This document shows, piece by piece, positions 14,534 to 24,000 of a stretch of 24,000 bases of DNA. The position numbers and the translations under genes were made by a program. The notes under the pieces are model-generated. The model was not told where the DNA came from. It saw nothing but the letters and a program-made list of their open reading frames with translations, and searched no databases. The stretch is from assembly GCA_964482765.1 (NCBI GenBank), contig CAYZYZ010000006.1:1-24000 (forward strand), read 5' to 3'. This DNA comes from an uncultured Candidatus Saccharibacteria bacterium (lineage in GTDB: Bacteria > Patescibacteriota > CPR2_A > CG2-30-33-46 > CAYZYZ01). Numbering within the stretch: position 1 is the stretch's first letter; each line of letters opens with the position of its first letter.

Positions 14534-16150
14534 TTAACCTTCAATCTCTCTGAGGTTTTGCTGGAATCCTTTTTCCAGGCTATCGAACATTGCTTTGTGA
14601 AACTCGTCATCAAAGTCTGGCACGGATTTTTTGACCCGTCCGCAAGACTTTTCTTCAAGGCAAAATCCAACCAGCTCGCACTTTATTTTCATGGCTTGAG
14701 CCACTTCATCCTGCCCTAACTCTCGTAATTTCTTCTGAATTGCCGACAACTCTTTCAGGGTCATGGACTGAAGATGCTCTTCCACTGTTGAACAAGTACG
14801 AACCGGATAATAACCGGAGAGCAAATTATATAAATTGTATTCTTGAAGAATATCCAACTTTACTGCCCGGGGCACTATGTAAATCGCCTCCGAAGGCTTT
14901 ACACCTTTTTCAATTAATTTTTCGTAGCAGTTTAAGGCATTCAATCCGACTTCCAAATATCTATACAGGAAATTTTTGTTTTCTTCTTTTTTAAGTTCAG
15001 GAGAAATGGCGAAGAATCTATCAATTTCTGATAATTCCTCTTTGGAAAGATTTTTCTCTTTTATTTTTTCGGAATAACCGCTTAAAAATTCCCGCGCTCT
15101 TTCCGTAGCAAAATACAAAGAGTCAGGAATCATGGGAACAGTTCGGTGGCGCTTCTTCTCGCCCCAAGCCCTCCAGGCAACTCGGGACAAAACCTTAACA
15201 TTTATCGCTTGTCCAAAATCGCGACAAATCTTCCTTTTCTCTTCCAAAAGCTTTTTCCAGCCAGTTTTAATCTTTTCTTTGGAGGAGAATGTTTCTTTTT
15301 CAAGTTCTTTTAAATTTTTAAGCCTTGTCTTAAGCTCTTCAGAATCTATCACTTCTAAACTTTCGATTCTGAAATTCTTCTGCGGAAGTTCTTCTTTTTC
15401 AATCAGCTCTCTCGCTAAATTTTTCTCGTTAGGATTTTTTAAAATGTTAGGAAAAGGATAAATATCACGCGGTGCTTCTAATCGTGTAGCGTAAAGATTT
15501 AAAACACCGAGGTTTTTCAACTCTTTCTCGATTGCTTCAAGAAATAAACCAGCTTCTTTTGGCATCCATTCCCTTTCCGCTTCGTATTCTCTTTTGAAAC
15601 CCACCAAAGATTCAATCGATAAAGAGATTATTCCGGTCCCGTAAATTCCGTAATGTAAAATTTTGGCGGTGGCGTCTTTGTCTAAACCTGCCTTTATTGA
15701 CTCCTTTAAAAATTTGATTATTTCAATTGATTGTTCTTCGTAATCTTTTTTGAGCTTTGGGTCGTCGGCAATTTGGTCTGGATAAACAATATCATCGGGA
15801 GTTGTATCCGTTCTCCGTCCAGATGCCATTAATGATGAAGAAAAAACAATCCCTGTAAAAAGCGTGTCTATAAACTTGCTTGCCTCATAATTGAAAGAAA
15901 AAACCGGTGTTGTAGCAATAGAAGCATGACCCCGTAAAGATGATTTTCTCAAAATCTTTAAAACTTTTTCATCGATATCCTGTCCTTTTTCCTTTGCCTC
16001 CTTATACAAGGCTTTAACTGATTTCCCTTTAAAGGTCAAAAGAGCCGAAAGAGCAGCAATGTCTTCCGGTTTTAATTCTCCTGTTTTGTCTTTTAAAACA
16101 GGGTTTATCCCTAAAAATTTAATATTTAAATCAGAAATTTTATAACTCAT
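14534..16150 (-). CDS. thyX: Long (538 aa) ThyX-like flavin-dependent thymidylate synthase family protein
   Basis: RHRTVPMIPDS fits the ThyX signature RHR-X7-S. The N-terminal LRGHASIATTPVFSFNYEAS resembles the GHxSxxEHxxFxF region. The C-terminal PRAVKLDILQEYNLYNLLSGYYPVRTCSTVEEH resembles the ThyX C-terminal helix region. AAGGA lies 7 nt upstream of the ATG, and the gene is adjacent to a Dcd-family gene. Confidence 0.55.
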   Translation of the reverse strand: MSYKISDLNIKFLGINPVLKDKTGELKPEDIAALSALLTFKGKSVKALYKEAKEKGQDIDEKVLKILRKSSLRGHASIATTPVFSFNYEASKFIDTLFTGIVFSSSLMASGRRTDTTPDDIVYPDQIADDPKLKKDYEEQSIEIIKFLKESIKAGLDKDATAKILHYGIYGTGIISLSIESLVGFKREYEAEREWMPKEAGLFLEAIEKELKNLGVLNLYATRLEAPRDIYPFPNILKNPNEKNLARELIEKEELPQKNFRIESLEVIDSEELKTRLKNLKELEKETFSSKEKIKTGWKKLLEEKRKICRDFGQAINVKVLSRVAWRAWGEKKRHRTVPMIPDSLYFATERAREFLSGYSEKIKEKNLSKEELSEIDRFFAISPELKKEENKNFLYRYLEVGLNALNCYEKLIEKGVKPSEAIYIVPRAVKLDILQEYNLYNLLSGYYPVRTCSTVEEHLQSMTLKELSAIQKKLRELGQDEVAQAMKIKCELVGFCLEEKSCGRVKKSVPDFDDEFHKAMFDSLEKGFQQNLREIEG

Positions 16151-17194: not shown

Positions 17195-17545
17195 TAAACC
17201 AACCTTCTCTGTTTTTATAAGAAAACCTCTGGCTACAATATCACCTCTTAAAACAATTGCTCGCTCACTATTTAAATTATAAACCGAGATTTTCAACTCT
17301 TCACCCTGTTCGTCGGTTGAATTTACAATCTTTGAAGAAACCGATAATCCCTTTGTTTCTAAAATGTCAGCGGGAGTAACTACAAAAACATAGCCCTTGG
17401 GCGGCTCAACTACTACATTTAGAGGAACCAAGCGGCGTTCTTTTGGATTGATTATTACATCCCTCCTGGAAGTTAAATAAAGTATAGAATCTTTCTCGGC
17501 GGGCGAGGCTAGCGTTTTGTCGACTCTTTTTATTGAAGTTTTCAT
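17186..17545 (-). CDS. Degenerate dUTPase-fold-like 119-aa protein, translationally coupled to rplA
   Basis: ATGA overlap with the rplA stop. By eye, DVIINPKERRLVPLNVVVEPPKGYVFVVTP...KIVNSTDEQGEELKISVYNLNSERAIVLRGDIVARGFL follows the trimeric dUTPase beta-strand pattern, but the catalytic motifs are not conserved. Confidence 0.45.
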   Translation of the reverse strand: MKTSIKRVDKTLASPAEKDSILYLTSRRDVIINPKERRLVPLNVVVEPPKGYVFVVTPADILETKGLSVSSKIVNSTDEQGEELKISVYNLNSERAIVLRGDIVARGFLIKTEKVGLPR

Positions 17546-18546
17546 GATTTTTTGGTCAGAGTATTTAATTTATTTATATCTATTTTAACAGATGGACCCA
17601 TCGTCGTCGATAAAGAAATACTTTTTACAAACTGACCCTTCACGGACTGCGGTTTAGACTTGGAAAGGGCTTCAATAAGGGCTTTTAAGTTCTCTTTTAG
17701 CTTCTCTTTCCCAAAAGAAACTTTACCGAATGAGGCATGGACAATTCCGAAACTGTCATTTTTTAGCTCTACTCTGCCTTTTTTGATAAGTTTTATTACT
17801 CTTTCAGGCTTATCGGTTACAGTTTCTGTTTTGGGATTGGGCATTAAACCTTTTGTCCCTAGTATTTTCCCTAGTTTGCCAATTTTCCCCATCATGTCAG
17901 GAGTGGCTATGACAATATCAAAATCGAGGAAACCTTTCTCGATTTTGGAGATTAAGTCGTCGCCGCCTGAAATGTCTGCCCCAGCATCTTTAATTTCTTT
18001 CTCTTTACCGGCACTCACGATTGCCGCCACTTTCACTTTTTTGCCCGCGCCTTGCGGCAAATCAACAACTGTTCTTATATTTTGGTCGGACAGCGATGGT
18101 TTAATTCCAAGTTTTGTGTGAACCTCTACTGACGAATCGAATTTGGTAGTTCCAGTTTTTAGCACCAAATCAATGGCTTCCTCTGGTAAATAAAATTGGC
18201 TTTTATTGATTAGTTTTGAAACCTCTTTGTATTTTTTGCCATGTTTTTTTATGTGAGGCTTTTGGGGCTTATGAGATTTTGGCGCTTCTTTGGTTTCTTC
18301 TTTTTTTGCGACCTTTGAGGACTCCTCTGCGCTCTTTGCGATTTCTTTTGCGTCTTTCGCGATTTCTTTTGCGTCTTTTGCGATTGCGCTCTTTGCGATT
18401 TCTTTTGCGTCTTTTGCGGTTTCTTTTGCGTCTTTTGCGTTTGCATCTTTTGCGTCTTTTGCGTTTGCATCTTTTGCGTCTTTTGCGTTTGCATCTTTTG
18501 CGTCTTTTGCGATTGCAGTTTTCTTTTTTTCTTTTTTCTTAACCAT
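17542..18546 (-). CDS. rplA: 50S ribosomal protein L1 with ~100-aa N-terminal Lys/Ala/Asp repeat extension
   Basis: Canonical L1 begins at HGKKYKEVSKLINKSQFYLPEEAIDLV...VEVHTKLGI. AGGAG lies 6 nt upstream of ATG 18546. I see no usable in-frame start codon near the canonical N-terminus. Confidence 0.9.
   Translation of the reverse strand: MVKKKEKKKTAIAKDAKDANAKDAKDANAKDAKDANAKDAKETAKDAKEIAKSAIAKDAKEIAKDAKEIAKSAEESSKVAKKEETKEAPKSHKPQKPHIKKHGKKYKEVSKLINKSQFYLPEEAIDLVLKTGTTKFDSSVEVHTKLGIKPSLSDQNIRTVVDLPQGAGKKVKVAAIVSAGKEKEIKDAGADISGGDDLISKIEKGFLDFDIVIATPDMMGKIGKLGKILGTKGLMPNPKTETVTDKPERVIKLIKKGRVELKNDSFGIVHASFGKVSFGKEKLKENLKALIEALSKSKPQSVKGQFVKSISLSTTMGPSVKIDINKLNTLTKKS
18330..18520. repeat. Coding tandem repeats (21- and 24-bp units) in the L1 extension
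   Basis: Three exact 24-bp copies of GCGTCTTTTGCGTTTGCATCTTTT (18428-18499), encoding AKDAKDAN. Related 21-bp units encoding AKDAKEI lie at 18330-18427. Confidence 0.9.
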
Positions 18547-20181: not shown

Positions 20182-20227
20182 AAAAGTATAACAAATATTC
20201 ACGATCGTGAATATTTGTTATACTTTT
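20182..20227. repeat. 46-bp perfect palindrome (possible terminator or operator) closing the pilin operon
   Basis: AAAAGTATAACAAATATTCACGA|TCGTGAATATTTGTTATACTTTT. I checked all 23 arm positions base by base. Confidence 0.9.
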
Positions 20228-20232
20228 CTCCG

Positions 20233-20385
20233 TTATTCTACTATTCGCGCAAATAGTTCCAAAAATAACCAAGAGCAAAACAAAAAAACCACAATCATTT
20301 CCAATAAAGTAAAACCAAAAAAATTTCTAGAAATTTTTTGAGATTTATTGAAACTGGTGGAAATTGTTGGAAATTTATTGCTCAT
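20233..20385 (-). CDS. 50-aa prepilin-like stub (leader plus hydrophobic N-terminal helix only); possibly a pseudogene
   Basis: Below the ORF-track size cutoff. My translation: MSNKFPTISTSFNKSQKISRNFFGFTLLEMIVVFLFCSWLFLELFARIVE. It contains the class III signal motif G|FTLLEM. Confidence 0.4.
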   Translation of the reverse strand: MSNKFPTISTSFNKSQKISRNFFGFTLLEMIVVFLFCSWLFLELFARIVE

Positions 20386-20394
20386 GATAATTAA

Positions 20395-21480
20395 TTATGG
20401 TAATAAACTTTGAGTCCAGGAATATATCCTTGAAGGGCTACCAGAGCCTAGACCGAGCTGGCTAAAAGTATTATTTCCGGTTCCCCAGACTGTACTATCT
20501 AATTTTAGAGCGAAGGAATGATATTGTCCTGCTGAGATGGCTCCAACATCTGTTAATGAGGTTTTAGTCCAGAAATATCTTGCAGTATCGTCACCTAAAC
20601 CTAGCTGGCCAAAGCCATTTTCTCCTGTTACCCAGACTATACCGTCGGATTTTAAAGCAAGGGAACGCTCCCCCCCTGCGGCGATAGCTGTAATTGCAGT
20701 CAAAGGTGTACTGGCAGCAGTCAAACCTTGTACTGTCCAAGAGTATGTTTGATTATTGTCACCTGAACCGAGCTGGCCATTAAGATTCCATCCAGTACCC
20801 CAGACTGTACCGTCGGATTTTAAAGCTAAGGAATGTTTAGATCCACCTGCCATGGCTGTGACTGCGGTTAAAGAAGTTTGTTTCCAGGATTTCTGATCTC
20901 TGTCATGACCTAGCCCGAGTTGGCCGTAATGATTATATCCTACTACATAGAGTGTGCCATCGAATTTTAAGGCTAAAGAGTGAAAGTTTCCAGCTGCAAT
21001 GGCTATAATTCCAGTTAATGAGGTTTTAGTCCAGAAATATCTTGCAGTATCGTCACCTAAACCTAGCTGGCCAAAGCCATTTTCTCCTGTTACCCAGACT
21101 ATACCGTCGGATTTTAAAGCAAGGGAACGCTCCCCCCCTGCGGCGATAGCTGTAATTGCAGTCAAAGGTGTACTGGCAGCAGTCAAACCTTGTACTGTCC
21201 AAGAGTATGTTTGATTATTGTCACCTGAACCGAGCTGGCCATTAAGATTCCATCCAGTACCCCAGACTGTACCGTCGGATTTTAAAGCTAAGGAATGTTT
21301 AGATCCACCTGCCATGGCTGTGACTGCGGTTAAAGAAGTTTGTTTCCAGGATTTCTGATTTTTGTCATGACCTAGCCCGAGTTGGCCGTAAAAATTATAT
21401 CCTACTACATAGAGTGTGCCATCGGATTTTAGGGCGAGAGAGTGATAAGCTCCTGCGGCGATAGCTCTAATTTTAGTCAC
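20395..21480 (-). CDS. Seven-blade RCC1-repeat beta-propeller protein with no recognisable signal peptide (GTG start)
   Basis: Seven repeats of the form HSLALKSDGTvwxxGxNxxGQLGLG. GGAG lies 7 nt upstream of the GTG. Overlaps the upstream gene by 8 nt. Confidence 0.85.
   Translation of the reverse strand: MTKIRAIAAGAYHSLALKSDGTLYVVGYNFYGQLGLGHDKNQKSWKQTSLTAVTAMAGGSKHSLALKSDGTVWGTGWNLNGQLGSGDNNQTYSWTVQGLTAASTPLTAITAIAAGGERSLALKSDGIVWVTGENGFGQLGLGDDTARYFWTKTSLTGIIAIAAGNFHSLALKFDGTLYVVGYNHYGQLGLGHDRDQKSWKQTSLTAVTAMAGGSKHSLALKSDGTVWGTGWNLNGQLGSGDNNQTYSWTVQGLTAASTPLTAITAIAAGGERSLALKSDGIVWVTGENGFGQLGLGDDTARYFWTKTSLTDVGAISAGQYHSFALKLDSTVWGTGNNTFSQLGLGSGSPSRIYSWTQSLLP
20552..21440. repeat. 462-bp direct tandem duplication inside the RCC1 gene
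   Basis: 20552-20897 matches 21014-21359 with no mismatch that I can see. Scattered mismatches follow for ~80 bp. The two identical antisense track ORFs (20537.. and 20999..) confirm the 462-nt offset. Confidence 0.9.
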
Positions 21481-21871
21481 AAAATAGCTCCAACTTTCTA
21501 TCTACACCAAAAGCTCTACCTTTAATAGTTACCTTTATATTCCCAGTACCTGGCTCATATCTATAACAAATGTTGTTTAAAGGAGGATCAAGGCAGACTG
21601 TGGCACTGCCAACTGGCCCTGTTTTAAGTTTCAGCAAAGCCTCTTCTGTTCCTGCTTCAGCCGCATTATAGGCAGCTTGGGAATTGGCAGCCTCTCCGCC
21701 TGTTTTTAGTTCCGTTACTATAAGTTGGGCTATTGCCAGACCAACGGTCAAAATAATAGTGGAAATAATAACCGCAAAGAGAAGAGTTGATCCAGCACTC
21801 CGACCCGGGTCGGAGTGCTGGGTTGAACCTCTTTTGGAAAATAATTTAGAAATTTTGGATTTATTTTTCAT
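21473..21871 (-). CDS. PilX-like / pseudopilin-like small membrane-anchored protein
   Basis: N-terminal anchor STLLFAVIISTIILTVGLAIAQLIV followed by AANSQAAYNAAEAGTEEAL, which resembles the PilX N-terminal domain pattern. Confidence 0.55.
   Translation of the reverse strand: MKNKSKISKLFSKRGSTQHSDPGRSAGSTLLFAVIISTIILTVGLAIAQLIVTELKTGGEAANSQAAYNAAEAGTEEALLKLKTGPVGSATVCLDPPLNNICYRYEPGTGNIKVTIKGRAFGVDRKLELFCD
21792..21821. repeat. 30-bp perfect palindrome CCAGCACTCCGACCCGGGTCGGAGTGCTGG inside the PilX-like CDS
   Basis: Checked base by base. Encodes TQHSDPGRSAG in frame, immediately before the hydrophobic anchor. Confidence 0.9.
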
Positions 21872-21951: not shown

Positions 21952-23655
21952 CTAAAATTTTCTATAAGATCCTCCGTTGTTATATACGCCAATATAAAAC
22001 CATCCTCCCCAAATGATCATCTCTTTTCCTGTCCATATGGCAGTATGCTGACGCCTTGCAGCGGGGACGTTAGTAGCTGATGTTGGAATCCAAGTATCGT
22101 TACATGGGTTGTAGCGGGAACCATCGTTTACATAATCAGTGCCACTCGCGCTAGCATTTCCTCCCCAGATGATCATCTCTGTACCGGTCCAGACAGCAGT
22201 ATGAAGCTCTTTGCCAGGTGGAGCGCCGGTGGTGGTTGTTGGGGTCCAGGTATTTGTGGCGGGGTTGTAGCGGGCACCGGTATTGAGCGCTGCCCAAGTC
22301 TGTCTAGATCCACTGCAAGGAGGAAGACAACCCCATCCTCCCCAGATAATCATTTCTGTTCCTGTCCAAACAGCGGTGAAATCTTCTCTACCAGAGGGAG
22401 CATTAGTGATTGTTGTTGATGTCCAGGTATTAGTAGTTGGGTTGTAGCGACCACCGGTATTTAAATAACCACTGCCTCCCCAGATGATCATTTGATTAGC
22501 TGTTGCGGGATTACCGGTTTCCCCGGTCCAAACAGCAGTATGTCCGTCTCTAGCAGAAGGAGCATTGGTAAAGGATGTTGAAGTCCAGGTATTTGTGGCA
22601 GGATTGTAGCGGGCACCTGAATTAGTTTGACCACCTGCATTATATCCTCCCCAGATAATCATTTCTGTTCCTGTCCAAACAGCAGTATGATAGGTTCTAG
22701 CAGAAGGAGCATTGGTGGTGGATGTTGGGGTCCAGGTATTTGTGGCAGGGTTGTAGCGGGCACCGTCATTATAATAATCCCCGCCATACGCGCCACCATT
22801 TCCTCCCCAGATGATCATTTGATTAGCTGTTGCAGGATTACCGGTTTCCCCGGTCCAAACAGCAGTATGTCCACCTCTATAAGAAGGGGAGTAGTAGGCG
22901 GGTAATATCCGGACCCAGGTATCAGTAGTTGGATTGTAGCGGGCACCGTCATTATAGTCACCATTTAATACGCTTCCTCCCCAGATAATCATTTCTGTAC
23001 CGGTCCATATGGCAGTGTGTCTATATCTACCACCCGGATCTCTGACGCCTGTTGTTAAATTTGGTTTGTCTGTTGCCCAATTCCAAATTTTCTCTTCGTA
23101 ATAATTCCTTTTGGATACTATACTACTTAAGGTGATTTTGGGTTTGGTGCCTGTTCTGTCTGAGGCTTCTTTGGCTTCGGCTTCAATAGTTAGTTTAAAG
23201 AAAGGTTGAATATTATTAGAGCAATCCGAAAAAACATTGTCATCCACATTGAAGGTAAGAATGTTAGTAGAGTCGGTGGTTAAGTTTTGGCTGGTTCCTC
23301 CTGGGGGGCTGGTCATTATGATTTTCCCGCTCGAAAGCTTAAATTCAATCTGTATATTGTCTTTGCTTGTGGTTGTAATGATGTTATTTGTTTTATCTAC
23401 ATTAGTAGTTTTTGCCAATCTTGCTTCTCTGGAAATAGTCTCTAGAGCATACCTTGCATCTTGCTGAATCTTTCTGATGTTGTTGGTTTTTTTGGCTACA
23501 TTGTAGATAGTAATAAAAAGCTCACTGGTAGCTGTCAGAACTAGGGCAAAAACAGCAATAACCATAATCATTTCCAACAAAGTAAAACCACAGTTCGCAG
23601 AACTGGCGCGAAAAGGAACGCGGAACCGACGCCTAAATTTCTCTCGCTGTATCAT
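21952..23655 (-). CDS. Prepilin-type (PilW/GspJ-like) minor pilin fused to a seven-blade Kelch-like beta-propeller
   Basis: Leader MIQREKFRRRFRVPFRASSANCG|FTLLEMIMVIAVFALVL, then QQDARYALETISREARLA (PilW/GspJ-like). Seven repeats follow of the form RYNPxTNTWT...HTAVWTGxEMIIWGG. AAGGAG lies 6 nt upstream of the ATG. Confidence 0.85.
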   Translation of the reverse strand: MIQREKFRRRFRVPFRASSANCGFTLLEMIMVIAVFALVLTATSELFITIYNVAKKTNNIRKIQQDARYALETISREARLAKTTNVDKTNNIITTTSKDNIQIEFKLSSGKIIMTSPPGGTSQNLTTDSTNILTFNVDDNVFSDCSNNIQPFFKLTIEAEAKEASDRTGTKPKITLSSIVSKRNYYEEKIWNWATDKPNLTTGVRDPGGRYRHTAIWTGTEMIIWGGSVLNGDYNDGARYNPTTDTWVRILPAYYSPSYRGGHTAVWTGETGNPATANQMIIWGGNGGAYGGDYYNDGARYNPATNTWTPTSTTNAPSARTYHTAVWTGTEMIIWGGYNAGGQTNSGARYNPATNTWTSTSFTNAPSARDGHTAVWTGETGNPATANQMIIWGGSGYLNTGGRYNPTTNTWTSTTITNAPSGREDFTAVWTGTEMIIWGGWGCLPPCSGSRQTWAALNTGARYNPATNTWTPTTTTGAPPGKELHTAVWTGTEMIIWGGNASASGTDYVNDGSRYNPCNDTWIPTSATNVPAARRQHTAIWTGKEMIIWGGWFYIGVYNNGGSYRKF

Positions 23656-23902: not shown

Positions 23903-24000
23903 TTACTTTCCCCAGTTTGTTAAAATAGTTGAGGTTTCCACTTTGTTTGTAGACCCTTTTTCTACCCATGTTACTTTTACTGTAACTTTTCTTTTATCAG
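23903..24000 (-). CDS. 3' end of a further pilin/pseudopilin-like gene (5' part outside the window)
   Basis: The frame from 23998 reads DKRKVTVKVTWVEKGSTNKVETSTILTNWGK then stop. This beta-strand pattern is typical of minor-pilin C-termini. Weak evidence, based on only 31 aa. Confidence 0.35.
   Translation of the reverse strand, partial: DKRKVTVKVTWVEKGSTNKVETSTILTNWGK

What the first reader, a model, noticed from the sequence alone, without database searches (positions are those of the whole stretch)
20395..21480. Seven-blade RCC1 propeller in the PilY1 position, without a signal peptide
- In the classical fimU-pilV-pilW-pilX-pilY1-pilE operon, the gene after pilX encodes PilY1.
- PilY1's C-terminal domain is a beta-propeller that sits at the pilus tip with the minor pilins.
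- Here the gene after the PilX-like ORF is a pure RCC1-repeat propeller (7 x HSLALKSDG...GQLGLG).
- That is a different, eukaryote-like repeat family in the same slot, suggesting non-homologous replacement of the tip adhesin.
- As annotated (GTG start), it has no secretion signal, which is a problem for an extracellular role.
Basis: partly seen in the sequence, partly recalled or inferred. Interest (0 to 1): 0.65.

Follow-up and report, generated by a model that had tools for sequence, protein, structure and literature searches.

The report
Frameshift-split pilin with RCC1 propeller
The "signal-less" RCC1 propeller gene is the back half of a known kind of pilus-tip protein gene (a PilX-type minor pilin carrying an RCC1 adhesin module), cut off from its front half by one extra T, so it is an interesting gene fragment rather than a new PilY1 replacement.

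Summary
Window 20395-21480 (-) encodes a complete seven-blade RCC1-like propeller: Pfam WD40_RLD E=1e-77, AF2 pLDDT 95.5, Foldseek UVR8 TM 0.91. It starts at a GTG and has no export signal.

It is not a free-standing gene in a PilY1 slot.
- Deleting one T from the TTTT run at 21481-21484 joins the upstream 132-codon PilX_N-like ORF to the RCC1 ORF.
- The resulting 491-aa protein aligns end to end with single-gene homologues P0064 (516 aa) and P0123 (534 aa; its cluster includes a candidate division CPR2 protein).
- The GTG "start" matches an internal Val codon in P0064. P0064 sits in the same place, just after a PilW-like pilin gene.

PilX with a heptabladed RCC1 propeller is already described and mutated in Saccharibacteria TM7x (PilX2, host binding; PMC11623550). 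Pilin-RCC1 architectures appear in the modular-pilin catalogue (PMC8179133).

The extra T is identical in four assemblies from four samples, so it is real. As encoded, the locus yields a module-less 132-aa mini-PilX and an unexportable propeller ORF, most likely a recently inactivated adhesin module. Blades 2-3 and 5-6 are identical over 346 nt, and three near-clonal assemblies carry a four-blade version. A programmed +1 frameshift is a minority possibility. Interest is modest: a new member of a known kind.

The parts
20395..21480 (-). RCC1-like seven-blade propeller ORF (361 codons from a GTG). It is homologous to the C-terminal adhesin module of PilX-RCC1 modular pilins.
   Evidence: Pfam WD40_RLD 1e-77. 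AF2 pLDDT 95.5 with 28 strands. Foldseek UVR8 TM 0.91. Aligns to residues ~128-516 of P0064.
21481..21484 (-). TTTT run at the module boundary. One T fewer would put the 132-codon ORF and the RCC1 ORF in one frame. Context on the minus strand: GGAG CTA TTT TGT GAC TAA.
   Evidence: Frame analysis. Conceptual fusion of 491 aa aligns end to end with P0064 and P0123. The same T4 run is present in window, L001, L002 and L003. The GTG matches an internal Val codon in P0064 DNA.
21473..21871 (-). 132-codon PilX_N-like pilin module. It has a leader, a conserved Gly27, a ~59-residue N-terminal helix and a 4-stranded sheet. It stops two codons after the frameshift.
   Evidence: Pfam PilX_N E=0.0033, below cut-off. 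55 of 150 homologues match PilX_N at E<=1e-3. AF2 gives helix 26-84 plus 4 strands, pLDDT 78.7. Best homologues are long modular proteins. More than 100 stand-alone 105-135-aa relatives exist.
20552..20897 (-). Exact 346-nt copy (blades 5-6) of 21014-21359 (blades 2-3). This repeat is the substrate for the 462-bp deletion, or assembly collapse, seen in the four-blade versions.
21014..21359 (-). Upstream copy of the exact 346-nt intragenic repeat (blades 2-3).
21952..23655 (-). 567-aa minor pilin. It has a prepilin N-terminal methylation motif and a PilW/GspJ/ComGF-like pilin module, followed by a Kelch beta-propeller of about six blades.
   Evidence: Pfam N_methyl 1.3e-5 and Kelch_KLHDC2 1.2e-49. 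TIGR02532 26.5 bits, above its 16.3 cut-off. The syntenic 210-aa homologue in L005 lacks Kelch.
23903..24000 (-). 3' end of a PilV-like minor pilin gene that runs off the window (...KVTWVEKGSTNKVETSTILTNWGK*).
   Evidence: The same C-terminal motif ends the pilin module of P0062, which has a weak PilV hit (TIGR02523 1.3e-6) and is itself fused to RCC1.
20233..20385 (-). 50-codon truncated pilin remnant (leader + GFTLLEMIVV + stop), in the position of the last pilin gene of the operon.
   Evidence: (N_methyl E=0.0023). It is 91% identical over 34 nt to the N_methyl region of the 567-aa gene.
20183..20226 (-). Terminator-like hairpin (20-bp stem plus a T-rich tail) that ends the pilin operon, upstream of the secE promoter-like site.

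Best explanation
The RCC1 ORF is the 3' two-thirds of a PilX2-type modular minor-pilin gene. The ancestral gene encodes one protein of about 490 aa with two modules. The N-terminal PilX_N-type pilin module has a hydrophobic alpha-1 helix, a conserved Gly before the helix and no Glu5. It inserts into the membrane and is built into the tip of a type IV pilus. The C-terminal seven-blade RCC1 propeller is thereby displayed as an adhesin or lectin-like head.

In this population one extra T in a T-run (21481-21484), exactly at the module boundary, shifts the frame. Translation of the pilin module stops two codons later. The product is a 132-aa module-less mini-PilX, the same size as the stand-alone PilX of most Patescibacteria, and it is probably still functional. 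The propeller part remains as an open frame whose first possible start is a GTG that is an internal Val codon in the fused orthologues. It has no export signal, so it is most likely not displayed. That makes it a recently inactivated adhesin module that is beginning to decay.

Shown: the identity of both parts, the frameshift, collinearity and synteny with fused homologues, and the presence of the extra T in four assemblies.
Inferred: tip location, adhesin role, and loss of function.
Sub-confidences: 'split PilX-RCC1 gene' about 0.9; 'module currently non-functional or not displayed' about 0.6.
For: -: the RCC1 frame is open for only 7 codons upstream of the GTG. The 132-codon ORF ends at 21473 in the other frame, giving an 8-nt overlap.
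- an exhaustive search with the 132-aa ORF returns long proteins as best hits (P0122 490 aa, P0123 534, P0124 668, P0064 516), all matching at their N-termini.
- P0064 hits both halves. Its N-terminus matches the 132-aa ORF. The rest matches the RCC1 ORF at 45% identity over 98% of the query.
- removing one T gives a 491-aa protein collinear with P0064 and P0123 from first to last residue, with seven blades each.
- P0064 DNA 'GTG ATA ACT AAA ATC GCC GCC GGA' matches the window's 'GTG ACT AAA ATT AGA GCT ATC GCC GCA GGA', so the GTG is an internal Val codon.
- in L005 the fused gene directly follows a 210-aa homologue of the window's 567-aa PilW-like pilin.
- the identical T4 junction occurs in four assemblies from four samples.
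- this is a PilX_N family carrying variable C-terminal modules (Laminin_G_3, RCC1 and others). Stand-alone ~120-aa members are the last gene of pilC-pilA-pilD-minor-pilin clusters.
- a pilin-like helix plus sheet, and a closed seven-blade RLD.
- modular pilins, including IPR012902-IPR000408, are catalogued. TM7x PilX2 carries a heptabladed RCC1 propeller and its deletion halves host binding.
- Decay signs: four-blade variants, a truncated pilin remnant downstream, and a blade-7 GQLG motif degraded to SQLG in the window.
Against: - The RCC1 ORF is still fully open over 361 codons and models as a perfect propeller, so inactivation would have to be very recent, or the module is still used.
- A GGAG lies 7 nt upstream of the GTG, so independent translation is possible.
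- The shift site (GGAG-CUA-UUU-UGU, with UGU the second-rarest codon) resembles a +1 recoding site.
- All assemblies that share the frameshift are near-clonal, so its evolutionary persistence cannot be judged.
- Pfam PilX_N on the window ORF itself is below the curated cut-off, and Foldseek found no significant PDB match for the pilin module.
- No T4P machinery genes lie on this 24-kb contig.
Confidence: 0.6

Rival explanations
1. Programmed +1 ribosomal frameshift. Most ribosomes stop and make the 132-aa mini-PilX. A fraction slip +1 on UUU_U, with peptidyl-tRNA-Phe re-pairing, a rare UGU codon in the A site and an SD-like GGAG 3 nt upstream as in prfB. Those ribosomes make the full PilX-RCC1 adhesin, which would set the ratio of bare to propeller-tipped pili.
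For: The sequence GGAG CUA UUU UGU GAC UAA has the prfB-like geometry. UGU occurs at 2.8 per 1000 and is the second-rarest codon in the window's genes. The downstream frame is intact and models as a perfect propeller. The shift falls exactly at the module boundary.
Against: - The fused homologues P0064 and P0123 are in frame and lack the GGAG/T4 motif.
- GGAG simply encodes the conserved Leu-Glu of the R-K-L-E motif.
- There is no conservation beyond near-clonal strains.
- There is no unusual RNA structure at the site (z = -0.89).
- The A-site codon is a sense codon, not a stop.
- Four-blade variants suggest the module is dispensable.
Confidence: 0.12
2. Reversible ON/OFF or size switching of the adhesin module. 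Slipped-strand change at the T-run (T4<->T3) and unequal recombination between the identical blade pairs (7<->4 blades) would give a population mix of pili with and without a working propeller. This would be a form of phase or antigenic variation toward hosts or phages.
For: Near-clonal samples differ in blade number. The 346-nt repeats are exact. A patch of 9 substitutions within 30 nt of blade 7 looks like gene conversion. Contigs L002 and L003 break within about 30 nt of the junction.
Against: A 4-nt homopolymer is too short for efficient slippage, and all four assemblies show T4. The four-blade form may be an assembly collapse, because 346-nt exact repeats exceed k=141 and typical read length. 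No T3 allele was observed.
Confidence: 0.1
3. A genuinely separate RCC1 protein translated from the GTG by translational coupling. It would work in the cytoplasm or have an unrelated role, with the resemblance to fused genes reflecting an old gene fission.
For: GGAG lies 7 nt upstream of the GTG and the ORFs overlap by 8 nt. The ORF is complete and folds as a closed propeller without upstream residues. Stand-alone mini-PilX proteins are the norm in Patescibacteria.
Against: No other two-gene example was seen among the PilX-like loci screened for RCC1/Kelch signatures. The GTG aligns to an internal Val codon of P0064. Many genes in this window lack an SD, so the GGAG is not diagnostic. Four-blade variants would not form a closed propeller.
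Confidence: 0.08
4. A free-standing RCC1 propeller has non-homologously replaced PilY1, is exported by an unknown route and docks on the minor-pilin tip complex.
For: Gene order superficially matches pilV-pilW-pilX-[propeller]-[pilin remnant]. TM7x PilX2's propeller is discussed as PilY1-like in role.
Against: There is no signal peptide and no upstream in-frame start. There is no PilY1/PilC homology. In relatives the propeller is covalently part of PilX. Typical Patescibacteria clusters end with mini-PilX and have no PilY1-like gene.
Confidence: 0.04
5. The frameshift is a sequencing or assembly error and the real gene is intact.
For: Homopolymer indels are a known error type. The 361-aa product is not on record as a called protein in the collection.
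Against: The identical T4 junction occurs in four independent assemblies from four samples and at least two pipelines. A 4-nt run is not error-prone for short-read data.
Confidence: 0.03

Closest known systems
PilX2 of Nanosynbacter lyticus TM7x (Saccharibacteria), a minor pilin with a C-terminal heptabladed RCC1 beta-propeller (Grossman et al., bioRxiv 2024, PMC11623550)
   Same: A PilX-type N-terminal helix without a canonical PilD/Glu5 signal. A seven-blade RCC1 propeller at the C-terminus. Located in a T4P minor-pilin locus in Patescibacteria. Proposed tip adhesin.
   Different: In the window the two modules are in different reading frames (1-nt insertion), so no single polypeptide is encoded. 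The pilin module here is minimal (about 105 mature residues).
Fused PilX_N-RCC1 proteins P0064 (516 aa, Logan SRR22388277) and P0123 (534 aa). The P0123 cluster includes KKQ94932.1 from candidate division CPR2 bacterium GW2011_GWC2_39_10.
   Same: Collinear with the conceptual fusion over the full length: 42-44% identity in the pilin module and 45% in the P0064 propeller. Seven blades, the same C-terminal end, and the same upstream PilW-like neighbour for P0064.
   Different: They are in frame. Their blades are all diverged, whereas the window has two identical blade pairs.
Modular type IV pilins (PilB-vWA and PilC-lectin of Streptococcus sanguinis; Raynaud et al. PNAS 2021, PMC8179133)
   Same: A functional module grafted onto the C-terminus of a small pilin module via a short linker, presumed to be tip-exposed. 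The paper's Dataset S1 lists IPR012902-IPR000408 (RCC1) architectures.
   Different: The carrier here is a PilX_N/GspK-like pilin lacking the IPR012902 GFxxxE motif. The gene is split.
PilY1/PilC tip adhesin of Pseudomonas and Neisseria
   Same: A beta-propeller presented at the pilus tip together with minor pilins. Encoded next to pilX.
   Different: PilY1 is a non-pilin, Sec-exported protein with an unrelated propeller family (IPR008707). No sequence match was found here. The window's propeller belongs to the pilin gene itself.
prfB (RF2) programmed +1 frameshift site
   Same: An SD-like element 3 nt upstream of a slippery P-site codon that can re-pair in +1 (CUU_U versus UUU_U), followed by a slowly decoded codon.
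   Different: The A-site codon is a rare sense codon rather than a stop. There is no phylogenetic conservation and no experimental evidence. The resemblance may be accidental.

Membership tests
RCC1-like domain (RLD) seven-blade propeller | Tandem ~50-aa RCC1 repeats scoring above the Pfam gathering thresholds | tested here: met
   WD40_RLD 262 bits (cut-off 150). RCC1_2 226 bits in 7 stretches. RCC1 133 bits. Seven DNA repeats.
RCC1-like domain (RLD) seven-blade propeller | A closed seven-blade fold resembling solved RLD structures | tested here: met
   AF2 pLDDT 95.5, pTM 0.93, 28 strands. Foldseek UVR8 E=2.5e-36 with TM 0.91, plus RPGR, HERC2 and RCC1.
PilY1/PilC tip adhesin | Homology to the PilY1/PilC C-terminal propeller family | tested here: not met
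   No PilY1/PilC family among Pfam hits at E<=0.1. The propeller is RCC1-type.
PilY1/PilC tip adhesin | An independent, signal-peptide-bearing non-pilin protein | tested here: not met
   No start or signal upstream of the GTG. The first residues are a propeller strand. Homologues are fused to a pilin module.
PilX2-type modular minor pilin (PilX_N module + RCC1 module) | An N-terminal PilX_N-type pilin module (long hydrophobic alpha-1 helix plus a small beta-sheet) | tested here: met
   This applies to the upstream ORF only. PilX_N E=0.0033, below the cut-off. 55 of 150 homologues match PilX_N. Nearly invariant G27/A67/A70/A71/G74/E76. AF2 helix 26-84 plus 4 strands. Foldseek against PDB was uninformative.
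PilX2-type modular minor pilin (PilX_N module + RCC1 module) | Pilin module and propeller in one polypeptide | tested here: not met
   In the window the two are in different frames with a stop at 21473-21475. The feature is met in homologues P0064 and P0123. The window therefore holds a disrupted member.
PilX2-type modular minor pilin (PilX_N module + RCC1 module) | Encoded within a type IV minor-pilin gene cluster | tested here: met
   The 567-aa prepilin (TIGR02532 above cut-off) and a partial PilV-like pilin lie upstream, and a pilin remnant lies downstream. Synteny with L005.
PilX2-type modular minor pilin (PilX_N module + RCC1 module) | T4P assembly machinery (PilB/PilC/PilD/PilM-O) present in the genome | not testable with these tools
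   The contig is only about 24.4 kb and no species genome was retrieved. Related mini-PilX loci do sit next to pilC and pilD.
PilX2-type modular minor pilin (PilX_N module + RCC1 module) | A role in host or surface binding at the pilus tip | not testable with these tools
   The only evidence is by analogy with TM7x delta-pilX2.
Programmed +1 ribosomal frameshift (prfB-like) | A slippery P-site codon, an upstream SD-like element at ~3 nt and a slow A-site codon | tested here: inconclusive
   GGAG-CUA-UUU-UGU is present. UGU occurs at 2.8 per 1000. But GGAG encodes the conserved Leu-Glu, and the A-site codon is a sense codon.
Programmed +1 ribosomal frameshift (prfB-like) | Conservation of the shift site in divergent relatives | tested here: not met
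   P0064 and P0123 are in frame without the motif. The strains that share the site are near-clonal.

The most novel reading that the evidence does not exclude
The T-run at the module boundary is a functional recoding or switching site. A prfB-like +1 ribosomal frameshift (GGAG-CUA-UUU-UGU) would let one gene make both a bare mini-PilX and a propeller-bearing PilX-RCC1 adhesin in a set ratio. Alternatively, the T-run together with recombination between identical blades would act as a genetic ON/OFF and size switch. Either way an ultrasmall episymbiont could tune how many of its pili carry a host-binding head.
Probability: 0.15. Interest if true: 0.7.

Novelty: new member of a known kind. Interest (0 to 1): 0.3.

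Why it matters
It corrects a tempting misreading. The propeller is not a novel signal-less PilY1 substitute. It is the adhesin head of a PilX-type modular pilin, an architecture already shown to mediate host binding in cultivated Saccharibacteria.

The case has some value as a natural experiment. A near-clonal groundwater-type Patescibacteria population carries this adhesin gene split exactly at the module boundary, with blade number differing between samples. The neighbouring minor pilin carries a second, Kelch-type propeller. This illustrates how quickly pilus-tip modules are gained, shuffled and lost in episymbionts. It also warns that ORF-by-ORF annotation of such loci yields 'orphan' cytoplasmic propellers. 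If the shift site proved to be a recoding signal, it would be a new way to regulate pilus-tip composition.

Tried and rejected
- The exact-sequence look-up of the 361-aa product, with V or M as first residue, found it is not on record. No extra context came from it.
- The word-indexed search with the 132-aa ORF found only itself. The exhaustive HMMER search was needed.
- The metagenome scan and the GTDB-genome scan with the 132-aa ORF returned only distant PilX-like loci at 24-35% identity. None had RCC1 or Kelch signatures. No same-species genome was found, so the taxon and the T4P machinery could not be checked.
- A combined alignment for folding the conceptual fusion (A3) was discarded because MAFFT stretched the short PilX sequences across the propeller. 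The two parts were folded separately instead.
- Foldseek of the pilin-module model against PDB gave no significant match.
- RNA folding around the shift site showed nothing unusual.
- Rfam and tRNA scans of the window were empty.
- Sequencing error was considered and rejected as the cause of the frameshift.
- A true PilY1 homologue was also considered and rejected.
Full report
**1. What is in the sequence**

The window is one long run of minus-strand genes of a low-GC (39%) genome. The order is mrdA, mreDCB, proS, rseP, isoprenoid genes, frr, pyrH, tsf, rpsB, a Thy1-domain gene, dcd, rplA, rplK, nusG and secE.

A small pilin cluster sits at the upstream end, read on the minus strand:
- the 3' end of a pilin gene that runs off the window (…KVTWVEKGSTNKVETSTILTNWGK*, ending about 23906);
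- a 567-aa protein with a prepilin N-terminal methylation motif followed by Kelch repeats (23655-21952; N_methyl 1.3e-5, Kelch_KLHDC2 1.2e-49, TIGR02532 above cut-off);
- a 132-codon ORF (21871-21473) with a weak PilX_N match (E=0.0033);
- the flagged RCC1 ORF (21480-20395);
- a 50-codon pilin remnant (20385-20233, GFTLLEMIVV… then a stop);
- a 20-bp-stem terminator-like hairpin (20226-20183), followed by a strong promoter-like site for secE.

**2.

The ORF has seven tandem repeats spaced 147/168/147/147/168/147 nt. It scores far above the Pfam thresholds for RCC1-like domains (WD40_RLD 1e-77; RCC1_2 in seven stretches). AlphaFold2 gives a closed propeller of 28 strands (pLDDT 95.5, pTM 0.93). 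That model superposes on UVR8, RPGR, HERC2 and RCC1 with TM up to 0.92.

There is no signal peptide. The frame is open for only seven codons upstream of the GTG and contains no other start. Residues 4-9 already form the first propeller strand.

RCC1 propellers are not especially "eukaryote-like". More than 7,000 proteins from public genomes and metagenomes, many named as bacterial, matched at E<=1e-10.

**3. The gene model is what is wrong**

The 132-codon ORF ends …RKLELFCD* at 21473. The RCC1 frame reads …SWSYF-VTKIRAIAAG… across the same bases, offset by +1.

An exhaustive HMMER search with the 132-aa ORF found that its closest relatives are long proteins matching at their N-termini: P0122 (490 aa), P0123 (534), P0124 (668) and P0064 (516). 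P0064 was also among the best RCC1 hits, at 45% identity over 98% of the query.

Deleting one T from the TTTT run at 21481-21484 yields a 491-aa protein. It aligns from first to last residue with P0064 and P0123. All three share the same pilin module, the same junction (GRAFGVDRKLELF|VTKIRAIAAG versus GKAFGVLRKLEINLVPDIVITKIAAG), seven blades and the same C-terminal end.

At the DNA level the window's "GTG ACT AAA AT…GCC GCA GGA" corresponds to P0064's internal "GTG ATA ACT AAA ATC GCC GCC GGA". The presumed start codon is therefore an internal valine codon in the fused orthologue.

Synteny agrees. In L005 the fused gene directly follows a 210-aa homologue (MIQREKFR…GFTLLE…) of the pilin part of the window's 567-aa protein. 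P0123's 90% cluster contains KKQ94932.1, "RCC1 repeat domain protein" of candidate division CPR2.

**4. The extra T is real**

The junction GGAGCTATTTTGTGACTAA is identical in the window and in three other assemblies from three other samples: L001 and L002 from ENA, and L003 from JGI.

These populations are nearly clonal. L003 differs from the window at one scattered position in about 1.4 kb, plus a patch of nine substitutions within 30 nt of blade 7 that looks like gene conversion. There is therefore no evolutionary depth to show whether the split is maintained by selection.

**5. The family**

Of the 150 best representatives of the PilX-like family, 55 match Pfam PilX_N at E<=1e-3. A minority carry C-terminal modules: Laminin_G_3 in 5, RCC1 in 2, and Fib_succ_major, PKD, cadherin-like and BNR once each.

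A profile of the N-terminal modules retrieved more than 100 stand-alone proteins of 105-135 aa. In Portnoybacteria contigs such a mini-PilX is the last gene of a cluster ordered pilC, pilin, pilD and three minor pilins, and is followed by ligA. The 132-aa product left by the frameshift is thus a normal-sized PilX for this group.

Its AF2 model is a pilin "lollipop" with a helix at 26-84 and four strands (pLDDT 78.7). Foldseek found no significant PDB match. The family keeps a Gly before the helix and has no Glu5. From general knowledge, this is typical of GspK/PilX-type tip pilins.

A different pilin can carry the same module. P0062 is a PilV-like prepilin (GQSLIEVVIA…) fused to seven RCC1 blades, and its propeller is 50% identical to the window's.

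**6. Comparison with what is known**

Modular pilins, meaning a functional domain grafted onto a pilin for display at the tip, are an established concept. More than 1,200 examples and 264 architectures have been counted (PMC8179133). That paper's Dataset S1 lists IPR012902-IPR000408 (RCC1) architectures.

More specifically, in the cultivated Saccharibacterium TM7x the minor pilin PilX2 "has a heptabladed β-propeller domain with RCC1 repeats" and lacks a predicted PilD signal. Its deletion reduces host binding from about 10.6% to 4.6%. The authors discuss PilY1 as a loose structural parallel (PMC11623550).

The window therefore holds a disrupted member of a described kind. It is not a PilY1 homologue (no such Pfam hit) and not a separate gene in the PilY1 slot.

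**7. How it most likely works**

Inferred from the family: the intact protein is inserted into the membrane by its N-terminal helix, is incorporated at the pilus tip with the other minor pilins, and displays the propeller as a binding head.

As encoded here, translation ends two codons after the shift, leaving a bare mini-PilX. The propeller frame has no route out of the cell.

Signs that the locus is being remodelled or is decaying:
- Blades 2-3 and 5-6 are identical over 346 nt.
- Three near-clonal assemblies carry a 207-aa four-blade version that lacks exactly one 462-bp unit.
- The last pilin gene of the operon is reduced to 50 codons.
- The window's blade 7 has SQLG in place of the GQLG signature.

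The four-blade form could instead be an assembly collapse, because the exact repeat exceeds k=141 and typical read length. This was not resolvable here. The seven-blade layout is the one collinear with P0064 and P0123.

**8. Alternatives**

The shift site, GGAG-CUA-UUU-UGU-GAC-UAA, has the geometry of the prfB +1 recoding site. An SD-like element lies 3 nt before a P-site codon that can re-pair in +1, followed by a rare codon (UGU, 2.8 per 1000, second-rarest in the window). The downstream frame is pristine.

Against recoding:
- the fused homologues lack the motif;
- GGAG merely encodes the conserved Leu-Glu;
- there is no special RNA structure at the site;
- conservation cannot be shown.

I rate recoding at about 0.12 and a genetic ON/OFF or size switch at about 0.10. 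An independently translated cytoplasmic RCC1 rates about 0.08.

**9. Verdict**

The feature is a frameshift-split PilX-RCC1 modular minor pilin gene, a new and disrupted member of a known kind. Interest is modest (0.3). It rests mainly on the precise module-boundary split and the blade-number variation in a near-clonal population, and on the untested possibility of recoding.

Noticed in passing
window 21952-23655 (-): The adjacent minor pilin (567 aa) also carries a propeller. It has a prepilin N-terminus and a PilW/GspJ/ComGF-like pilin module, followed by about six Kelch blades. Its syntenic homologue in L005 (556-1188) is a 210-aa pilin without Kelch. This operon would therefore place two different propellers on two neighbouring tip pilins.
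   Followed up: partly
window 20233-20385 (-): A 50-codon truncated pilin remnant (leader + GFTLLEMIVV, then a stop) lies in the position of the last pilin gene. It is followed by a 20-bp-stem terminator-like hairpin at 20226-20183. It looks like a deletion-derived pseudogene.
   Followed up: partly
window 21787-21826: A GC-rich, near-perfect 40-nt palindrome (18-pair stem; the 28-nt core is unique in the window) lies inside the leader-coding part of the 132-codon PilX-like ORF. It encodes an insert (…STQHSDPGRSAGS…) absent from all aligned homologues. It could be a small inserted element or a regulatory hairpin.
   Followed up: partly
window 20395-21480 versus L001 790-1413 and L003 27-650: Near-clonal populations from other samples carry a 207-aa four-blade version (B1-B2-B3-B7). 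L003 additionally has nine substitutions clustered in 30 nt of blade 7 and only one elsewhere in 1.4 kb. This patch looks like gene conversion and restores a GQLG motif.
   Followed up: partly
window 17542-18546 (-): Ribosomal protein L1 has an N-terminal low-complexity extension of about 100 aa, (AKDAKDAN…/KEIAKSA…)n. The protein is 334 aa here and 326 aa in L001, so the repeat number varies between strains.
   Followed up: no
window 14534-16150 (-): A 538-aa protein with a Thy1 (ThyX) domain. From general knowledge this seems much longer than a typical ThyX. It sits next to dcd and a dUTPase-like gene.
   Followed up: no
L006 16-384 and 545-2149: In the CPR2-type contig a module-less mini-PilX paralogue (122 aa) sits immediately upstream of the fused PilX-RCC1 gene. 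Some genomes therefore keep both a bare and a propeller-bearing PilX in tandem.
   Followed up: no
L004 1998-3707: P0062 is a PilV-like prepilin fused to seven RCC1 blades, 50% identical to the window's propeller. It lies downstream of two pilA-like genes and a FimU/GspH-like gene. The same propeller family is therefore grafted onto different minor pilins.
   Followed up: partly
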